Assembly: GCA_951406725.2 (NCBI GenBank)
Contig: OX597832.1
Span: 64,790,001-64,854,000, forward strand
Origin: Octopus vulgaris
Taxonomy: Eukaryota
Direction: 5' to 3'
Length of the DNA stretch: 64,000 nt
The notes beneath the pieces are model-generated. The model was not told the DNA's origin and made no database searches. It was given only the letters and a program-made list of their open reading frames with translations. Of this stretch, positions 2,653-54,040 are shown piece by piece (within the stretch, counting starts at the first letter, position 1; each line of letters starts with the position of its first letter). Both the position numbers and the translations under genes were made by a program.

Positions 2653-2697
2653 GTCTCCCGACTCGAGTTTCACGCAACTCCCCTCATCAGGCGAGAC
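2653..2697 (-). ncRNA. Minimal type-I hammerhead ribozyme motif (Penelope-like element/retrozyme type)
   Basis: Minus strand reads gtctcgc-CTGATGA-ggggagttgcgt-GAAA-CTCGAG-TC-gggagac. Core intact, palindromic stem III, stem I 6/7 bp, stem II degraded. Confidence 0.7.
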
Positions 2698-3636
2698 TGG
2701 GAAAACGTGCTATTATTAGGAGCGTATGAGTGAATATCTGTGTGTATATGTATACACAGCATGGGTTGTGAGTGGCCTAGAGCTTGTGTTTAATCATGGG
2801 TCAGCCTTCTAGTGCTTTTCCTTGGTTGTATATGGTATATCTGTTGTATAGCATTTCTATTTCTTGCAATTGTGGGTGCTTTGTTGGTGGTGGCCGATTT
2901 TGTTTTGTATTATTTCATGTATTATGATAATTTTTTGTTAATATATATAGAGAGGAAGAGAGGGGAGACAGAGGGCAGGAGACTGAAGAGAAAGGTAGAA
3001 ATAATGGTCTACGGGAATGAGTTAATGGCAACTATAAAAAAGATTAAGTGAAATAGATGAAGTGAATAGTGTCAGACAAATAAAAGACAAAAACGAAAAC
3101 ATTCTTAGTTACAGAGGAACTAATCGAAAGTGAATTGCAAAAGAAAGACAAAGCCTTTCCGAAAGAAGAAATCAAAATGCATGTAATTTGTAAAGTAGAA
3201 GAAGGAAGGAAAAATGACAAGGAATAAGCAAAAGCAAAAGGAAAAGTAAAAGATTACGGTGGAAAGCACAAAGCAAAATGATTAAGCATAATTGAAAGAA
3301 GATCGCAAAAAACACCTAAATAATTATGACGGGTACTAGGCTGGAATAGACATACCTAGGCGTATGTCTGCATGCGAATGTAATTGTAAACATATATAGA
3401 AATTAATGTGCCTACGTGCATATATGTGCCTGGATATGAATGCGCAGCAACGAAATTGTTAAAGGAGCGAAATATAGCTATAGCGTATGTCACTAACAGC
3501 ACTTATATTGACTAACGACTAGATAAGATTCAATGAGAGAAAGTCTTCTTTTATGGTAAATTCTAATGACCAAATGGATTATACGATTATATAGCTCGCC
3601 ACAATAACCACAATGTTTGCTGTCAAGTTCTACTAC

Positions 3637-8391: not shown

Positions 8392-9281
8392 TATATATAT
8401 ATTTATATACATATATATACATTTACATATATATGAACATATACATACATATATATATATATACACACACACAGATACACACAGACACACACACATATAT
8501 AACTACACATTTTTGAACATACATTGCATGCGTGTGTATATATATATATTTGTGAGGAAGCCGATACGTAACTGTGATATGTGCGTTGTGTATGTCGCTT
8601 CACTGGCATCATTTGTTCTCACCAGAAATCCCATATAATGCGCAAAAACAGTAGAAACTGTTTATTTCCTACACTACAAGAAAAATTAACTATATGTTGC
8701 TCCATTAGTCTTTTAAAATGTCTATAGCGAGCTTAGAATTGAATACATTTTCTACAACAACCTCATTACAAACAGAACCGTATAATGTTTCCTCGTAGTC
8801 TTAATGGAATCCTGGAATTAGAAGAAACAGTAGTTGTACCAAACTGCTAAATTTATTACCATTAAACGAATATATTTGGTCGGAAACAAACATGGAAGTA
8901 AGCACATTTACAAAACATACATGCACAAACACAGACACACAAACATAAATATAATACGCATACAAACAAATATAGAAATAGCACCGACAAACGGGCTTAC
9001 AATATAATTGAACGTGTGTGTTTGTGTGTGTGTGTGTGTATAGTGACAACTTAATTTATATAACAACGAGAAAACCCAGAACACGTGAGCATGGGAGAAT
9101 GCGAAATACTAAATGCGTAAAAATCATGGCGTATAACTTGTATCACTGCCGTACACACACACACACACACACACACATTTATTTATATACATACATATAT
9201 ATATACGGTACTGTGAGTGTGTGTATAATTTGTATGTTCATGCATGTGTGAATTTGTGTGGGTTTGAATTAAACTAAATAC

Positions 9282-9360
9282 ATATGCGGGTGTATTTCAT
9301 GATATGTATTGGGTAGGTAGTATACATACTCAATACATATCATGAAATATACCCGCATAT
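9282..9360. repeat. Near-perfect 38-bp-arm palindrome
   Basis: atatgcgggtgtatttcatgatatgtattgggtaggta / tacatactcaatacatatcatgaaatatacccgcatat; 3 differences, 3-nt loop. Confidence 0.9.
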
Positions 9361-9490
9361 ATATATGTATACTACCTACCTACCTACCAACCTACGTGTG
9401 TTTATGTGTAAATACCCACAAATTATATTTCGTATTTATAGATACATTTATATATGTATATTGATGTGCCTAAATATATTTCTAACAGTC

Positions 9491-18732: not shown

Positions 18733-19404
18733 TGGTTTCAAATTTTGCCACAAGGACAGAAATTTGGGGGAAGAGGATGAGTCGATTACATGGACCCCAG
18801 TGATCAACTGGTACTTATGTTATCGATCCCGAAAGAAGGAACGGTAAAGTCGACCTCAGCGGAATTTGAACGCTAAATATAGAGACGAGCGAAATACCGC
18901 TAAGCATTTCATCCAGCGCGCTAATGATTCTGCCAGTTCGCCACCTTAAGAATAATAATAACCGTAATAATTTCGGTACAAGGACAACAATTTTTAGGGG
19001 AGGCATTAATCGTTTACATTGATCCCAATACAAATCTGGTGCTGTATTTTATTGGTCCCAAAATGTTGAAATGCAAAGCTCACCTCTGCAGGATTTGAAC
19101 TGGAAACGGAAAGAATCTGAACTTTCAAAGCGTTTGTTTTGACGTTCAAGTGATTCTGCTTCTTCACCATTCTCTTCAGAAGAGATTTTGATTAAAGTGC
19201 AAGTGGACTGGACGAAACCGTCGACCACAGTAGGTGACTGGTATCATTTTATGTTGTCCACGAATAAATAAAATATAATTAAACGCAGCGTGATTTGAAC
19301 TGAGAACCTTAAGAATTGCAAGAAATATCACAAAGCGTTTTGTTTGATGCCCTTCTGAATCTGTCAGCCCACCGCCTGTTGCATGACAAGAATAAAAATT
19401 CTTT

Positions 19405-19787
19405 AAGGCGGCGAGCTGGTAGAAACCTTAGCACGCCGGGCGAAATGCGTAACCGTATTTCGTCTGCCGTTACGTTCTGAGTTCAAATTCCACCGAGGTC
19501 AACTTAGTCTTTCATCCTTTCGGGGTCAATTAAATAAGTACCAGTTACGCACTGGGGTCGATGTAATCGACTTAATCCGTTTGTCTGTCATTGTTTGTCC
19601 CCTCTATGTTTAGCCCCTTGTGGGCAGTAAAGAAATAGGTATATCGTCTGCCTTTACGTTCTGAGTTCAAATTCCACCGAGGTCGACTTTGCCTTTCATC
19701 CTTTCGAGGTCGATAAATTAGGTAACAGTTGCGTACTGAAGTCGATCTAATCAAAAATTTCGGGCCTTGTACATAGAGTAGAAAAGA
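19405..19787 (+). mobile_element. SINE family B, best-preserved copy with internal duplication of the central domain
   Basis: Head aaggcggcgagctgg. The motif gttctgagttcaaattccaccgaggtc.actt.g.ctttcatcctttcg occurs twice. Confidence 0.9.
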
Positions 19788-32710: not shown

Positions 32711-32754
<44 letters not shown>

Positions 32755-32755
<1 letters not shown>

Positions 32756-32930
32756 CTAATCCAAACGAAAACACAACGCGAGGGCGTGGAACAAGTATAG
32801 TGTTATTGGATGCACAGGAGAGAAGGAGAGTTTAACGTTTCCAGCGGAGCTCTTCGTCAGAAACATAGGAAGAGGAAAGATCCAAAGAAGGGAAGACGGA
32901 ATAAAAAAATCGCCAACGGTACACACGTGG

Positions 32931-32932
<2 letters not shown>
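32755..32932 (-). mobile_element. ~180-bp hammerhead-bearing element (same family as 7326-7500) inserted in (TA)n
   Basis: Minus strand 32830-32864 reads gttt-CTGACGA-a-gagc-tcc-gctg-GAAA-CG-TT-aaac. (TA)n on both sides. Confidence 0.75.
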
Positions 32933-32970
<38 letters not shown>

Positions 32971-33169
32971 GTGAATGAATTATCCTATGTTTATCGTCAG
33001 CATGGAAAATTGGTTTAACCGAAACCTGGGTAGCAAATTCACGTCAGAAACACGGTTGAAGCGACCTGTCCAAGGGTAGAAACTCCGGGTTCGTGTGCAG
33101 AAATTTGTGTGTTGTATATGAATAAATGAAAGAATGGAGACGAACGAAGATGTTAACAGAATTCCTTTA

Positions 33170-33251
33170 CTCTCGACATATGTTTCGAAGACAACAGGTT
33201 TTCATTCCAAAGGAATAAAGGGTGCATTGTGCAAGCTTCTCATCAGGAAAG
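33170..33251 (-). ncRNA. Type-I hammerhead ribozyme with extended stem II
   Basis: ctttc-CTGATGA-gaag...cttc-GAAA-CATATG-TC-gagag. Canonical core, 5-bp stem I (one G-U), palindromic stem III, GUC cleavage triplet. Confidence 0.8.
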
Positions 33252-33395
33252 AAAGGGAGCCTCTCTCGACAACAAGACATCTTTGACGTCAATTCTTCTA
33301 ACGGTTTTTTTAAAAAACACTCATTATCGTTTTGTTTACCATGTAGCCAGTCATCGAAATTTTTGTTTGTCTTGTTGCCGAGAGAGGCTCCCTTT

Positions 33396-33477
33396 CTCTC
33401 CCGATGAGAAGATTGCATAATGCACCCTTTATTCCTTTGGAATGAAAACATGTTGTCTTCGAAACATATGTCGAGAG
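33396..33477 (+). ncRNA. Type-I hammerhead ribozyme (U4C core variant) with extended stem II
   Basis: ctctc-CCGATGA-gaaga...tcttc-GAAA-CATATG-TC-gagag; perfect 5-bp stem I and a 5-bp base of stem II. Confidence 0.7.
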
Positions 33478-33495
33478 TAAAGGAATTTTCATTTA

Positions 33496-33497
<2 letters not shown>

Positions 33498-33541
<44 letters not shown>

Positions 33542-33728
33542 CATACATATATACATACATACATATATATATATACATACATATATATATATACATATAT
33601 ATATACATATATATATATACATATATATATATACATATATATATATACATATATATATACATATATATACATCTATATATATACATATATATACATATAT
33701 AAACATCTATATATACACATATATATAC

Positions 33729-33763
<35 letters not shown>

Positions 33764-33764
33764 C

Positions 33765-33849
<85 letters not shown>

Positions 33850-33891
33850 CATATATATATATGTATATATATATACATATATATATACATA

Positions 33892-33927
<36 letters not shown>

Positions 33928-33940
33928 TGTATGTATGTAT
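33498..33940. repeat. Compound (TA)n/(TACA)/(TATG)n microsatellite
   Basis: Directly visible. Confidence 0.95.
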
Positions 33941-34016: not shown

Positions 34017-34379
34017 ATCCATAGTTGCACTCCCCAGTTAGCATCACCTTTTTCATAGGGATATTTAGAAGAAAAGGCATATGTGTACGTACATTATATA
34101 CATGGAATATTATAATAAAGATGTGAAACTAATGAAACGACGATATCACATGGTGATAAGGATAATGGTGGCGATATTTATCACGATCAGGATTACAATG
34201 TTATTGAGGACGGCTCCGATGATTACCATCACAAAGGGGATATTTAAAGAGATGAACCTTTGTCGCTGTTAGAACTAGCAACATGATATGTACCAAAAAT
34301 GGGACATACCTAAAAACATTAAAGAAACAAGATTAAGGAGAAAAATTAGACAACGGGAAAATTATAGCAAGGCATGGGC

Positions 34380-35060
34380 AATAACTGGAGAAAGAAATCA
34401 AAGAGAAAGATAAGACCAACACTGGAAGTGGCTAAGGAAAGGAGATCCGAAAGGATGCATTGAGCGCTCAGGAACAAGCTCTGAGGACTAATTACAAGTT
34501 CCAAATAGATAAGAAAAGGGAATCACCACTTCGTAGGATGTGTGGTAGAAAAATCGAAACACTATTACATGTGAGTGGGTGTATCAAGCTGGACCAAAAG
34601 CACTACAAAAGGAGGTATGATAACGTGGCTAAGTTTGTTCACTTGAGATTGTGGGAGAAGTACGGTCTTGGAAGAACATGGAATATGAATAACATACGAA
34701 TATGACCGAGAAGGCGTCACTAAGAATGATAAGTATAAGATTTTGGGGGATTTTACAATCCCGTGTGACTCAGTGATTGATTCCCGAAGACCAGACATTG
34801 TTGTACTGGGTAGGGAGAAAAAGGAAACTAAGATCATAGATATTGCCATAACTTGGGACGTACATGTGGGTGACAAAGAGCTCGAAAATGTCGAAAAGTT
34901 ACTAAAACAGGAAATTGCAAGAATGTGGAAAATGAAGAGTAACTGCCATTCCAGTAATTGTTCGTGCTCCACTGGGAGCACGAACAACCAGCATTGAGAA
35001 ATGTAACGGAGAAACTGGAAGTGACATGATAGAAGAGCATGCTCTAAAAACGGCTCAGCT
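34380..35060 (+). mobile_element. Non-LTR retrotransposon 3' fragment, R4/Dong-like (zinc knuckle + restriction-like endonuclease), frameshifted
   Basis: Translations WKWLRKG, SAQEQALRTNY..RMCGRKIETLLHVSGC..KHYKRRYDNVAKFVH and GDFTIPCDSVIDSRRPDIVV..KIIDIAI match the CCHC + PD..D RLE C-terminus of R4-clade LINEs. Confidence 0.85.
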
Positions 35061-35254
35061 GTGGACAACGAAGATTTAGTGGTTATTGAGTGTTAAGTAT
35101 CTCCCACGACATTTAGTATCTACATATCAAGGCTTATGATTCGTGGAAAGAGACCCTGTGAGACCTATGACAACAGGTTGCTCCCCGCTCTCACAGAATT
35201 AACCAGAGCAAGTAAGTCGAAAGCTGTGACAAGTAAAATATAATAGTAATAATA

Positions 35255-35515
35255 ATGAACTCTCCTGCCGAAGCCGCGGTATGGTCGTTCAGCGTTTCCC
35301 GAACGACCAGCAGAAATGATTTGTTTATAGTGACGAAGTGTTCGTGTCACACATAAGCTCACTCTTTCTATCAAATCGACGTCGTCTGAACAGGTACACC
35401 GTGTGCCATGCGTCAGGTGCCCTAGTGATCGCACAACAACGCGAGGTGAAGTGCTTTGCTTATGAACACAACGAACCACCAGGTCCAGGAACTGAAACTA
35501 CGACCTCACGATCGC
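35255..35515 (-). mobile_element. tRNA-derived SINE with family-C-like head and a different tail
   Basis: Minus strand gatcgtgaggtcgtagtttcagttcctggacc..gttgtgttcataagcaaagcacttca resembles 11498-11570. Confidence 0.6.
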
Positions 35516-43624: not shown

Positions 43625-44220
43625 CAGTTGCGGCCAAATTGATCAGAACGGCATTGTTTTCGTCAGAAAAGTAAGTATAAGTTTTTATCAAAGTTGTTTT
43701 GTATTCTATAATTTTTACAGACAATAAATACAATATTAATTGGTATTGTATGAGATTTTGATATAATTTGAGTAGATAATACAAACGTTATGGATGATAT
43801 AGTGATTTACTGCAAAACCCATGGTGGCCAAAATGATCAGAACGATTGAAAAAATAACAAAATAATCAAAAAGTGACAGAGAATACTGGAATTATCTCAT
43901 ATTTAGTGTGAAGCCCTTTAGCTTCAACCAAAGTTTGACATTTTTTACTGCATGGGGAAATTAAATTTTCAATTTCTTGCTGGGTGATCTTATTCCATTC
44001 TTCCTGAAGGGCATTCCATAATTGCTCGGTTGTTTTAGGATTTCTGGCTTTCAAACATTCTTCTAGAATATTCCACACATTTTCAATAGGATTGAGGTCT
44101 GGAATTTGAGCAGGCCAATCCATAACAATAACCTTTTCAGCCTTGAGGAAGTTCATGACCACCTTAGCCTTGTGACATGGGGCATTGTCCTGCATGAATA
44201 TGGGTGGTCGCTTAGTTAAA
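43625..44220 (-). mobile_element. Tc1/mariner (DD34E) transposon 3' end: transposase C-terminus plus IR/DR-type terminal repeat
   Basis: ORF 43866-44195 QDNAPCHKAK...DWPAQIPDLNPIENVW...EEWNKI...KGLHTKY has 34 residues between D and E. The end is TA|CAGTTG at 43623-43630, with direct repeat ggccaaa.tgatcagaacg at 43632-43650 and 43826-43844. Confidence 0.92.
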
Positions 44221-44462
44221 TTTCTCTGTTGACCACTTTTGCTGCTACGATCAACAGTCCTCTACTACTAACCCCAACCACCACCAAGGTTGCCAAAATT
44301 ACGACCAACTACTACGACCAACAATCGCTACTGTTGCTACCATTGGAACACAAGGTAACAAAAAAGCGGTTGCTTTTAATACCAGCAAGAAACAATAATG
44401 GACTTCTTCAATACACTCAACAGGAATATAGCGATTATACCAACTACCGACAAAACACCACC

Positions 44463-53785: not shown

Positions 53786-54036
53786 TGTGTCTGGGGAGAG
53801 TCATTTTCTTTTTGTGCCTTTTAATTTAACGCACTGGTAAAATTTCCACTCATTTCTTATTTTTATTTTCCTAAACTTTTCGTTGCATCTTGCAACTTTT
53901 TCAAGAGTCAAGACTATTGAAAGGGTTGCAAGACACAACGAAAATTTTAGGAAAATAAAAATAAGAAATGAGTGGCAATTTTACCAGTGCGTTAAATTAA
54001 AAGGCACAAAAAGAAAAGAAAACGACTCTCCCCAGA

Positions 54037-54040
<4 letters not shown>
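53786..54040. repeat. Long palindrome (~125-bp arms, 2-nt spacer) at the end of an AT-rich element starting ~53490
   Basis: tgtgtctggggagagtc...cgttgcatcttgcaactttttcaagagtc AA gactattgaaagggttgcaagacacaacg...gactctccccagacaca. Confidence 0.92.

What the first reader, a model, noticed from the sequence alone, without database searches (positions are those of the whole stretch)
33160..33487. Twin-hammerhead foldback: a 120-bp inverted repeat with one ribozyme on each strand
Seen: two 120-bp arms of high identity around an 88-bp spacer. Each arm contains a complete type-I hammerhead (stem I ctYtc/gagag, CUGAUGA or CCGAUGA core, a 53-nt stem II with an internal ttattcc/ggaatga hairpin, GAAA, palindromic CATATG stem III, GUC cleavage site), pointing outward. 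Known: minimal hammerheads with palindromic stem III occur in Penelope-like element pLTRs and retrozymes and are thought to cleave as dimers; PLEs often form inverted pLTR arrangements. Inference: a transcript in either direction carries a ribozyme plus its own antisense copy. It could therefore switch between a 120-bp dsRNA (ADAR/Dicer substrate, ribozyme off) and a self-cleaving fold. The long stem II is atypical for minimal PLE hammerheads.
Basis: partly seen in the sequence, partly recalled or inferred. Interest (0 to 1): 0.8.

Follow-up and report, generated by a model that had tools for sequence, protein, structure and literature searches.

The report
Inverted Penelope-type insertion with hammerheads
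This is two shortened copies of a common ribozyme-carrying repeat sitting head-to-head, most likely pasted in together by a Penelope-type jumping gene, a layout already described for that class, and a read-through RNA is predicted to be a locked hairpin, not an on/off switch.

Summary
In detail: 120-nt arms (114 of 120 identical) around 88 nt, each with a type I hammerhead pattern and a 53-nt stem II; cuts would fall after 33472(+) and 33175(-). The switch reading fails. Public contigs show the arm and the 'spacer' are one continuous repeat. The unit is two 5'-truncated copies joined head-to-head at 33279/33281, and it spans about 32966-33503 between (TA)n tracts, with a ~150-nt tail on the left copy only. 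Thirteen other displayed head-to-head joints fall at scattered positions. This is the described inverted layout of Penelope-like elements (PLEs). The foldback beats the ribozyme fold by ~115 kcal/mol and zips before the ribozyme is complete. The right arm carries a rare U4C core change. Family variants favour the long stem II (6 of 11 improve pairing). No RT gene or tandem unit could be linked, so retrozyme versus autonomous PLE end stays open (about 65:35). The scan noted similar layouts before on other DNA of this genome. One unexplained oddity: 9 of 10 copy-specific changes go to C on the element's sense strand, in both arms.

The parts
32933..32965 (.). (TA)n tract on the left; likely insertion target
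32966..33114 (-). ~150-nt one-sided 'tail' of the left copy, from the short end to the long end; begins with an AC-rich stretch
   Evidence: Contigs run across 33115 (records 3-6) and one runs into the TA tract (record 1); absent from the right copy
33115..33159 (-). 3' segment between ribozyme and the family's short end (about 33115); the right copy lacks 28 nt of it
   Evidence: summed depth rises from 76,639 to 200,951 across 33104-33131 in run X3 (not a copy number)
33160..33279 (-). Left arm: inverted, 5'-truncated copy. Type I hammerhead with intact CUGAUGA core (33246-33240), GAAA (33186-33183), predicted cut after 33175; stem II weakened by three copy-level changes
   Evidence: loose end behind 33279 continues as the reverse complement of the spacer in 9 contigs
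33279..33281 (.). Head-to-head inversion joint; about 1 nt unassigned, no microhomology seen
   Evidence: Loose ends behind 33279 and before 33281
33281..33367 (+). 'Spacer': upstream body of the right copy; the family continues further upstream in other copies
   Evidence: Contigs 33280-33373, 33286-33387, 33289-33396, 33312-33418, 33319-33409; 30-letter loose end before 33281 in 9 contigs
33378..33400 (+). Upstream repeat of the cleavage-site words plus stem I 5' strand; predicted to form a hairpin that blocks stem I (mirror at 33247-33269 on -, where an upstream GUC is intact)
33368..33487 (+). Right arm: type I hammerhead with U4C core (33401-33407), 53-nt stem II (33408-33460), GAAA (33461-33464), predicted cut after 33472
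33487..33503 (+). Short end of the right copy, merging into (TA)n
33499..33940 (.). (TA)n/(TACA)n tract on the right; likely insertion target

Best explanation
The feature is two 5'-truncated copies of one dispersed hammerhead-bearing repeat joined head-to-head between (TA)n tracts, most likely written in during one insertion by a Penelope-like element (PLE) reverse transcriptase/endonuclease. Inferred mechanism: the enzyme cuts both strands of a TA-rich target and primes cDNA at two internal start sites on the repeat's RNA. The 'long end' (about 32966) made the left copy and the 'short end' (about 33503, equal to 33115) made the right copy. Both cDNAs stopped early, 104 and 191 nt upstream of the ribozyme cut site, and were joined. 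Both arms hold a whole ribozyme only because both ran past it. The ribozyme likely works in the source RNA (processing to unit length, perhaps circles, possibly as a dimer or with protein help), not at this locus, where read-through RNA is predicted to be a locked hairpin. The repeat is more likely a non-autonomous retrozyme-type element (about 65%) than the 3' end of an autonomous PLE (about 35%). Shown: anatomy, repetitiveness, spacer continuity, variable joints, one-sided tail. Inferred: enzyme, priming, cleavage, circles.
For: Thousands of contigs lay on the 771-nt stretch (which includes a neighbouring repeat) in 4 of 4 runs, and 1574 on 32950-33345 in the one run re-laid. Spacer-to-right-arm contigs appear in all 4 runs, and loose ends show each copy is cut short at the joint. 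Of 27 joints, 15 were shown; 13 of these are head-to-head joints within this repeat, with arm starts scattered from -182 to +164 nt relative to the cut site. The ends are asymmetric: a tail on one copy only. Both flanks are (TA)n. An adjacent inverted 5'-truncated copy, a one-sided tail and microsatellite targeting are described PLE traits (PMC8557442; PMC3846280). Hammerhead pairs 100-700 bp apart on opposite strands were already reported (PMC4209133). A PLE protein extends both target strands from two internal RNA start sites, using uncleaved RNA (PMC11167929). Ribozyme constraint: 0 of 15 core positions among 14 variable sites (P=0.14 alone); 6 of 11 variants at paired positions improve pairing, against 9-14% expected (P 0.0002-0.002).
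Against: No RT or GIY-YIG ORF could be linked, and no tandem unit was seen: no genome is held, and the collection scans were blank. The tail is ~150 nt against 30-40 nt described. A TSD cannot be read inside (TA)n. 4 of 11 paired variants break a pair, and the share that merely keeps pairing (7 of 11) is not above chance (P 0.02-0.30). Linkage between variants cannot be seen in these tables. Two supporting variants (33413, 33414) appear but not, and 37 variant rows were not shown. The joint table cannot show copies whose joints lie upstream of the spacer, so '1 of 13 with two whole ribozymes' understates that share. No Rfam hammerhead match. In the isolated 120-nt arms the minimum-energy fold is not the ribozyme.
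Confidence: 0.88

Rival explanations
1. Regulatory switch: a read-through RNA toggles between a 120-bp duplex (ribozyme off) and a self-cleaving fold.
For: Each strand does carry a ribozyme plus its antisense copy; a duplex would be a plausible ADAR/Dicer substrate (established knowledge).
Against: The duplex is favoured by 115-117 kcal/mol, and stem I pair probability is about 1e-74. The antisense arm is transcribed first and zips with the emerging ribozyme. Joints vary among copies. The right arm has U4C, reported to reduce activity considerably in vitro (PMC3088659 passage). The left arm's stem II is weakened (type I fold -13.0 vs -21.9 kcal/mol).
Confidence: 0.03
2. A MITE or other DNA transposon whose terminal inverted repeats happen to contain a hammerhead.
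For: Long inverted arms, short non-coding middle, TA flanks; a DDE_3 transposase fragment lies elsewhere in the window.
Against: The ends are asymmetric (left copy ~150 nt longer). The middle is continuous with one arm and extends beyond the joint in other copies. Joints vary.
Confidence: 0.03
3. A single insertion later turned into a palindrome by a DNA replication or repair slip, or an assembly foldback artefact.
For: No listed contig bridges this exact junction; palindromes are common in the window.
Against: The arms differ at 6 of 120 sites, three derived in each arm. The left copy holds 28 nt plus a tail that the right lacks, and the right holds 87 nt that the left lacks, so neither is a simple copy of the other. 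Each ends at a family end.
Confidence: 0.05

Closest known systems
Inverted 5'-truncated pLTR insertions of endonuclease-bearing Penelope-like elements (PMC3846280; PMC8557442 Fig. 2 legend; opposite-strand hammerhead pairs in PMC4209133)
   Same: Head-to-head 5'-truncated copies, extension at one end only, (TA)n target, type I hammerhead near the 3' end
   Different: Tail ~150 nt rather than 30-40 nt; no ORF linked; ribozyme is not the minimal type
Metazoan non-LTR retrozymes (PMC7229834; bioRxiv 10.64898/2026.07.22.740005)
   Same: Non-coding, low-GC, dispersed repeat with a canonical type I hammerhead (2-bp stem III plus palindromic tetraloop); proposed to be mobilised by PLEs
   Different: Tandem units and circular RNA not shown here; at least 431 nt of continuous family sequence, at the upper end of the 150-450 bp described; 53-nt two-helix stem II; 'inverted' occurs 0 times in the main text of PMC7229834 and once, in a reference title, in the preprint
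Hydra-clade PLE hammerheads and PLE-X1_sMoe (PMC8557442 File S2)
   Same: Hammerhead about 90-210 nt from the 3' end and (TA)n preference in the Hydra clade; PLE-X1_sMoe has a stem II of 9 bp plus a 34-nt loop, so a ~52-nt stem II has a precedent in PLEs
   Different: Listed Hydra hammerheads, including Hydra-1_oBim, have short stem II and different sequence; ten short motifs of this repeat found no relevant match in that supplement

Membership tests
Type I hammerhead ribozyme | Conserved core (CUGANGA, GAAA, NUH, G10.1-C11.1) | tested here: met
   Left arm complete; right arm has U4C where 99% or more of family depth has U
Type I hammerhead ribozyme | Three helices around the core, stem I open | tested here: met
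   Stem I 5+5 bp, stem II up to 12 positions plus a distal 8-bp hairpin, stem III 2 bp or an 8-bp dimer
Type I hammerhead ribozyme | Covariation of helices among copies | tested here: inconclusive
   6 of 11 paired variants improve pairing, 1 keeps it, 4 break it; one possible two-sided change (33392/33482) cannot be phased
Type I hammerhead ribozyme | Match to Rfam hammerhead models | tested here: not met
   No hit at gathering score or at E<=10; the long stem II is a likely reason (inference)
Type I hammerhead ribozyme | Self-cleavage; loop I-loop II tertiary contact | not testable with these tools
   Contigs cannot show RNA ends; no listed holder is on record as RNA
Minimal PLE hammerhead (min-HHR, PMC4209133) | Helix I 4-5 bp, helix II 7-8 bp with an unpaired base at its 5' end, little or no helix III | tested here: not met
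   10-bp stem I, no extra base between A9 and G10.1, 53-nt stem II, 2-bp stem III with tetraloop
EN+ Penelope-like element insertion | Adjacent inverted 5'-truncated copy, head-to-head | tested here: met
EN+ Penelope-like element insertion | Tail at one end only | tested here: met
   ~150 nt on the left copy only, longer than the described 30-40 nt
EN+ Penelope-like element insertion | Microsatellite target or TSD | tested here: inconclusive
   (TA)n on both sides; a TSD cannot be read inside it
EN+ Penelope-like element insertion | Linked RT + GIY-YIG ORF | not testable with these tools
   No genome held; no such ORF seen in the unit or among window ORFs of 120 aa or more
Metazoan non-LTR retrozyme | Non-coding repeat with type I hammerhead | tested here: met
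   No credible ORF in the 401 nt of family sequence held in the window
Metazoan non-LTR retrozyme | Head-to-tail tandem units of 150-450 bp | tested here: inconclusive
   No go-back joint among displayed rows; the unit may be longer than the part held
Metazoan non-LTR retrozyme | Circular RNA expressed | not testable with these tools
   Only contigs available
MITE | Fixed symmetric terminal inverted repeats around a distinct middle | tested here: not met
   Asymmetric ends, middle continuous with one arm, variable joints

The most novel reading that the evidence does not exclude
The two arms are separately made first-strand cDNAs, and each picked up about 2% changes during insertion, nearly all to G on the cDNA strand (9 of 10 copy-specific changes are to C on the element's sense strand, flipping direction on the chromosome exactly at the inversion joint). 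A mutagenic PLE copying step, by dG misincorporation or editing of the cDNA in the RNA-DNA hybrid, would explain the long-noted hypervariability of PLE hammerheads and retrozymes, and twin-armed insertions would let it be measured genome-wide.
Probability: 0.1. Interest if true: 0.6.

Novelty: new member of a known kind. Interest (0 to 1): 0.22.

Why it matters
As a locus it is ordinary: one insertion among many of a PLE-type repeat. The family is of modest interest. Its hammerhead has a long two-helix stem II that appears constrained, an upstream hairpin is predicted to block it, and its tail is several times longer than those described, which marks two candidate RT start sites that can be tested in vitro. 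If the strand-specific drift to C holds across other copies, it would point to a mutagenic copying step and address an open question raised in PMC4209133.

Tried and rejected
Whole-genome census: no genome held. Exact-pattern scans found 0 loci in viral contigs, metagenome contigs and prokaryote genomes; as expected for an animal repeat, these blanks carry no weight. Rfam: no hammerhead hit; the weak MIR4416 hit (31.9 bits vs cut-off 70) only reflects the hairpin. Expression: no RNA holder listed; run X13 is only guessed to be RNA and gives contigs, so it is not evidence either way. Motif searches in the PMC8557442 supplement: 9 of 10 motifs absent and 1 hit in unrelated sequence; line breaks and cut cells there can hide matches. 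Earlier findings by sequence and near this place: nothing. Alternative type III fold using the upstream GUC (33268 on -): only 3 bp of stem III and 3-4 kcal/mol worse than type I, and the minimum-energy hairpin sits in a different register; rejected as a second cut site (under 10%), kept as a blocking hairpin. An ADAR-edited foldback RNA copied back whole: rejected, because edits would then be A>G on one chromosomal strand in both arms, whereas the direction flips at the joint. The 109-codon frame across the left arm (33167-33496, -): its spacer and left-arm part (66 aa) had no Pfam match, and it only exists across the inversion joint. Pile-up of 5' truncations at the cut site: not seen among 13 displayed joints. 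Literature searches listed no paper on this family or on a twin-hammerhead antisense switch; only listings were seen for most hits, and bioRxiv supplements were closed.

Full report
Observation. The left arm 33160-33279 (read on -) and right arm 33368-33487 (+) align without gaps at 114 of 120 positions, with 88 nt between. A hammerhead descriptor run on both strands of the window hits only these arms: cores at 33401(+) and 33246(-), 53 nt between the core halves, cuts after 33472 and 33175. A similar descriptor gave no hit in 60 of 60 shuffled windows. Rfam reports no hammerhead. The window looks like an AT-rich, microsatellite-rich animal genome. 'Octopus-like' is my guess and the wording of earlier notes; it was not tested.

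The unit is larger than reported. A further 17-nt match follows a 28-nt gap in the right copy. The right copy then runs into a (TA)n/(TACA)n tract at 33499-33940. The left copy continues about 150 nt further, to a (TA)n tract ending near 32965. Both ends finish in similar pyrimidine-rich words that merge with TA.

What the family looks like. No genome is held, and four collection scans were blank. Twenty of 24 listed runs, from 10 studies, hold part of the stretch; none is on record as RNA. I laid 4 of them on 32740-33510 and 1 again on 32950-33345. Every part of 33000-33490 is covered by many diverged contigs, so it is a dispersed repeat; depth is not a copy number. Contigs join the 'spacer' to the right arm in all 4 runs. 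Behind 33279, nine contigs continue with the reverse complement of the spacer. Before 33281, nine contigs continue with 30 further pyrimidine-rich letters. So the element reads upstream body, spacer, ribozyme, short end, tail, long end: at least 431 nt. The locus is two 5'-truncated copies head-to-head, starting 104 and 191 nt upstream of the cut site. Contigs cross 33115, linking the tail to the ribozyme part, while summed depth in X3 rises about 2.6-fold there, which suggests many copies stop at the short end (the step is not seen in X1, where contigs split between the arms). Of 27 joints, 15 were displayed. Thirteen of these are head-to-head joints within this repeat, with arm starts from -182 to +164; 1 of 13 keeps a whole ribozyme on both arms. 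That share is biased low, because joints upstream of the spacer cannot be displayed; the scatter is the robust point.

The ribozyme. Stem I is 5 bp, a bulged U and 5 bp. Stem II is a helix of up to 12 positions, an internal loop and an 8-bp distal hairpin. Stem III is 2 bp with a tetraloop, part of a perfect 8-nt palindrome that pairs as a dimer at -7.0 kcal/mol. I took this structure from the motif and the fold before scoring the variants, though the variant table was already in view when I fixed the outer pairs of stem II. Of 15 displayed family variants in the arm (14 sites), none is in the 15 core positions (P=0.14). Eleven are at paired positions: 6 improve pairing, 1 keeps it and 4 break it. 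Improvement is expected in 9-14% of random changes (P 0.0002-0.002), whereas keeping a pair at all is not above chance. These P values treat variants as independent, 37 rows were hidden, and two supporting variants did not reappear. A diverged subfamily (13 contigs, loose end behind 33196) still shows the distal hairpin by eye, while one contig replaces 49 nt of stem II by 5. The right arm's U4C is rare in the family, and U4C lowers activity considerably in vitro (PMC3088659, passage). The left arm has an intact core but a weakened stem II. An upstream repeat of the cut-site words is predicted to form a hairpin with the stem I strand, so the ribozyme is not the minimum-energy fold of either 120-nt arm. 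Without the first 7 nt of the arm, the right arm folds with stems I and II. I read this as a blocker; a PLE hammerhead that needed its protein to cleave is described (PMC11167929).

The switch. For the whole inverted repeat the best fold is -205 (+) and -216 (-) kcal/mol. Forcing the ribozyme helices costs 115 and 117. During transcription the antisense arm comes first: 37 of 40 right-arm bases are paired once the core is made, and 100 of 105 at the cut site. There is no window in which the ribozyme competes. Only a transcript starting inside the spacer would carry a free ribozyme. A duplex for ADAR or Dicer remains possible if the locus is read through; nothing here tests it.

Mechanism and comparison. 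PLE insertions are often 5'-truncated with an adjacent inverted copy, carry a tail at one end and favour microsatellites (PMC8557442, passages; supplement part 2 of 59). Head-to-head is the usual orientation (PMC3846280, passages). Hammerheads 100-700 bp apart on opposite strands were reported in 2014 (PMC4209133, parts 1-2 of 4). A purified PLE protein cuts and extends both target strands from two internal RNA sites whose spacing is the tail, and does not need ribozyme cleavage (PMC11167929, parts 1-2 of 4). The anatomy here fits that: long end and short end as the two start sites, uncleaved or re-ligated RNA as template. These steps are inferred. The ribozyme resembles canonical retrozyme hammerheads more than minimal PLE ones (PMC7229834, parts 2-3 of 6 and passages), and retrozymes are argued to be non-autonomous PLE derivatives (bioRxiv 10.64898/2026.07.22.740005, part 1 of 5 and passages). 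A ~52-nt stem II has a PLE precedent in PLE-X1_sMoe. I could not show tandem units or an RT gene, so it works like a PLE-mobilised retrozyme but membership is open. Earlier notes on this genome describe an inverted twin hammerhead with long stem II and a ~493-nt two-armed retrozyme. They agree with my reading, but I could not match sequences, so they are leads only.

An oddity. Polarised by the family majority, all 6 arm differences are changes to C on the element's sense strand, three per arm; one of them (33412) is also a common family variant. Taking the 10 sites where about 94% or more of depth differs from the window (33012, 33093, 33140, 33159, 33197, 33229, 33347, 33378, 33398, 33402), 9 go to C and none to G (two-sided P=0.004). 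The arms lie on opposite chromosomal strands, so this follows the element, not the chromosome. The neighbouring repeat shows 2 of 6 displayed majority differences to C. The pattern was noticed after the fact, n is small, the right-side list may be incomplete, and the runs may come from other individuals or species. It is a lead, not a result.

Verdict. Real, well above chance, and mostly ordinary: a new member of a known kind. Interest 0.22.

Noticed in passing
window 32755-32932 (-): A second repeat between (TA)n tracts, directly left of the finding, carrying a minimal PLE-type hammerhead (core near 32860). It has far higher contig depth than the finding, and the family majority at 32842 restores the stem II closing pair.
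   Followed up: partly
window 2655-2700 (-): Short hammerhead-like motif with CUGAUGA, GAAA, palindromic stem III and a GUC site; stem I has a mismatch, so my descriptor missed it.
   Followed up: partly
window 34300-35260 (+): Broken 3' part of an R2-superfamily-like retrotransposon: zinc-knuckle and PD-(D/E)xK-like motifs by eye (motif names recalled; no Pfam match above cut-off), ending in (TAA)n. Earlier notes report rearranged hammerheads in such 3' UTRs; not checked here.
   Followed up: partly
window 53786-54040: A 255-nt near-perfect palindrome (89%) beside a CA/TA tract; no hammerhead hit by my descriptor; possibly another foldback insertion or a MITE.
   Followed up: no
window 9278-9364 and 18780-19752: Further inverted repeats: an 87-nt palindrome and 175-nt arms at 77%.
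   Followed up: no
window 43866-44261 (-): Tc1/mariner transposase fragment, Pfam DDE_3 E 7e-12.
   Followed up: yes
window 33378-33400 (+) and 33247-33269 (-): The nine letters around the cut site recur 93 nt upstream and compete for the same stem I strand: predicted blocker hairpin, or a weak type III second site.
   Followed up: partly
contigs of run X3 laid on window 32969-33173: Two contigs join the ribozyme's 3' side to the TA end through different 29-37-nt segments, suggesting sister families with the same ribozyme end and different tails.
   Followed up: no
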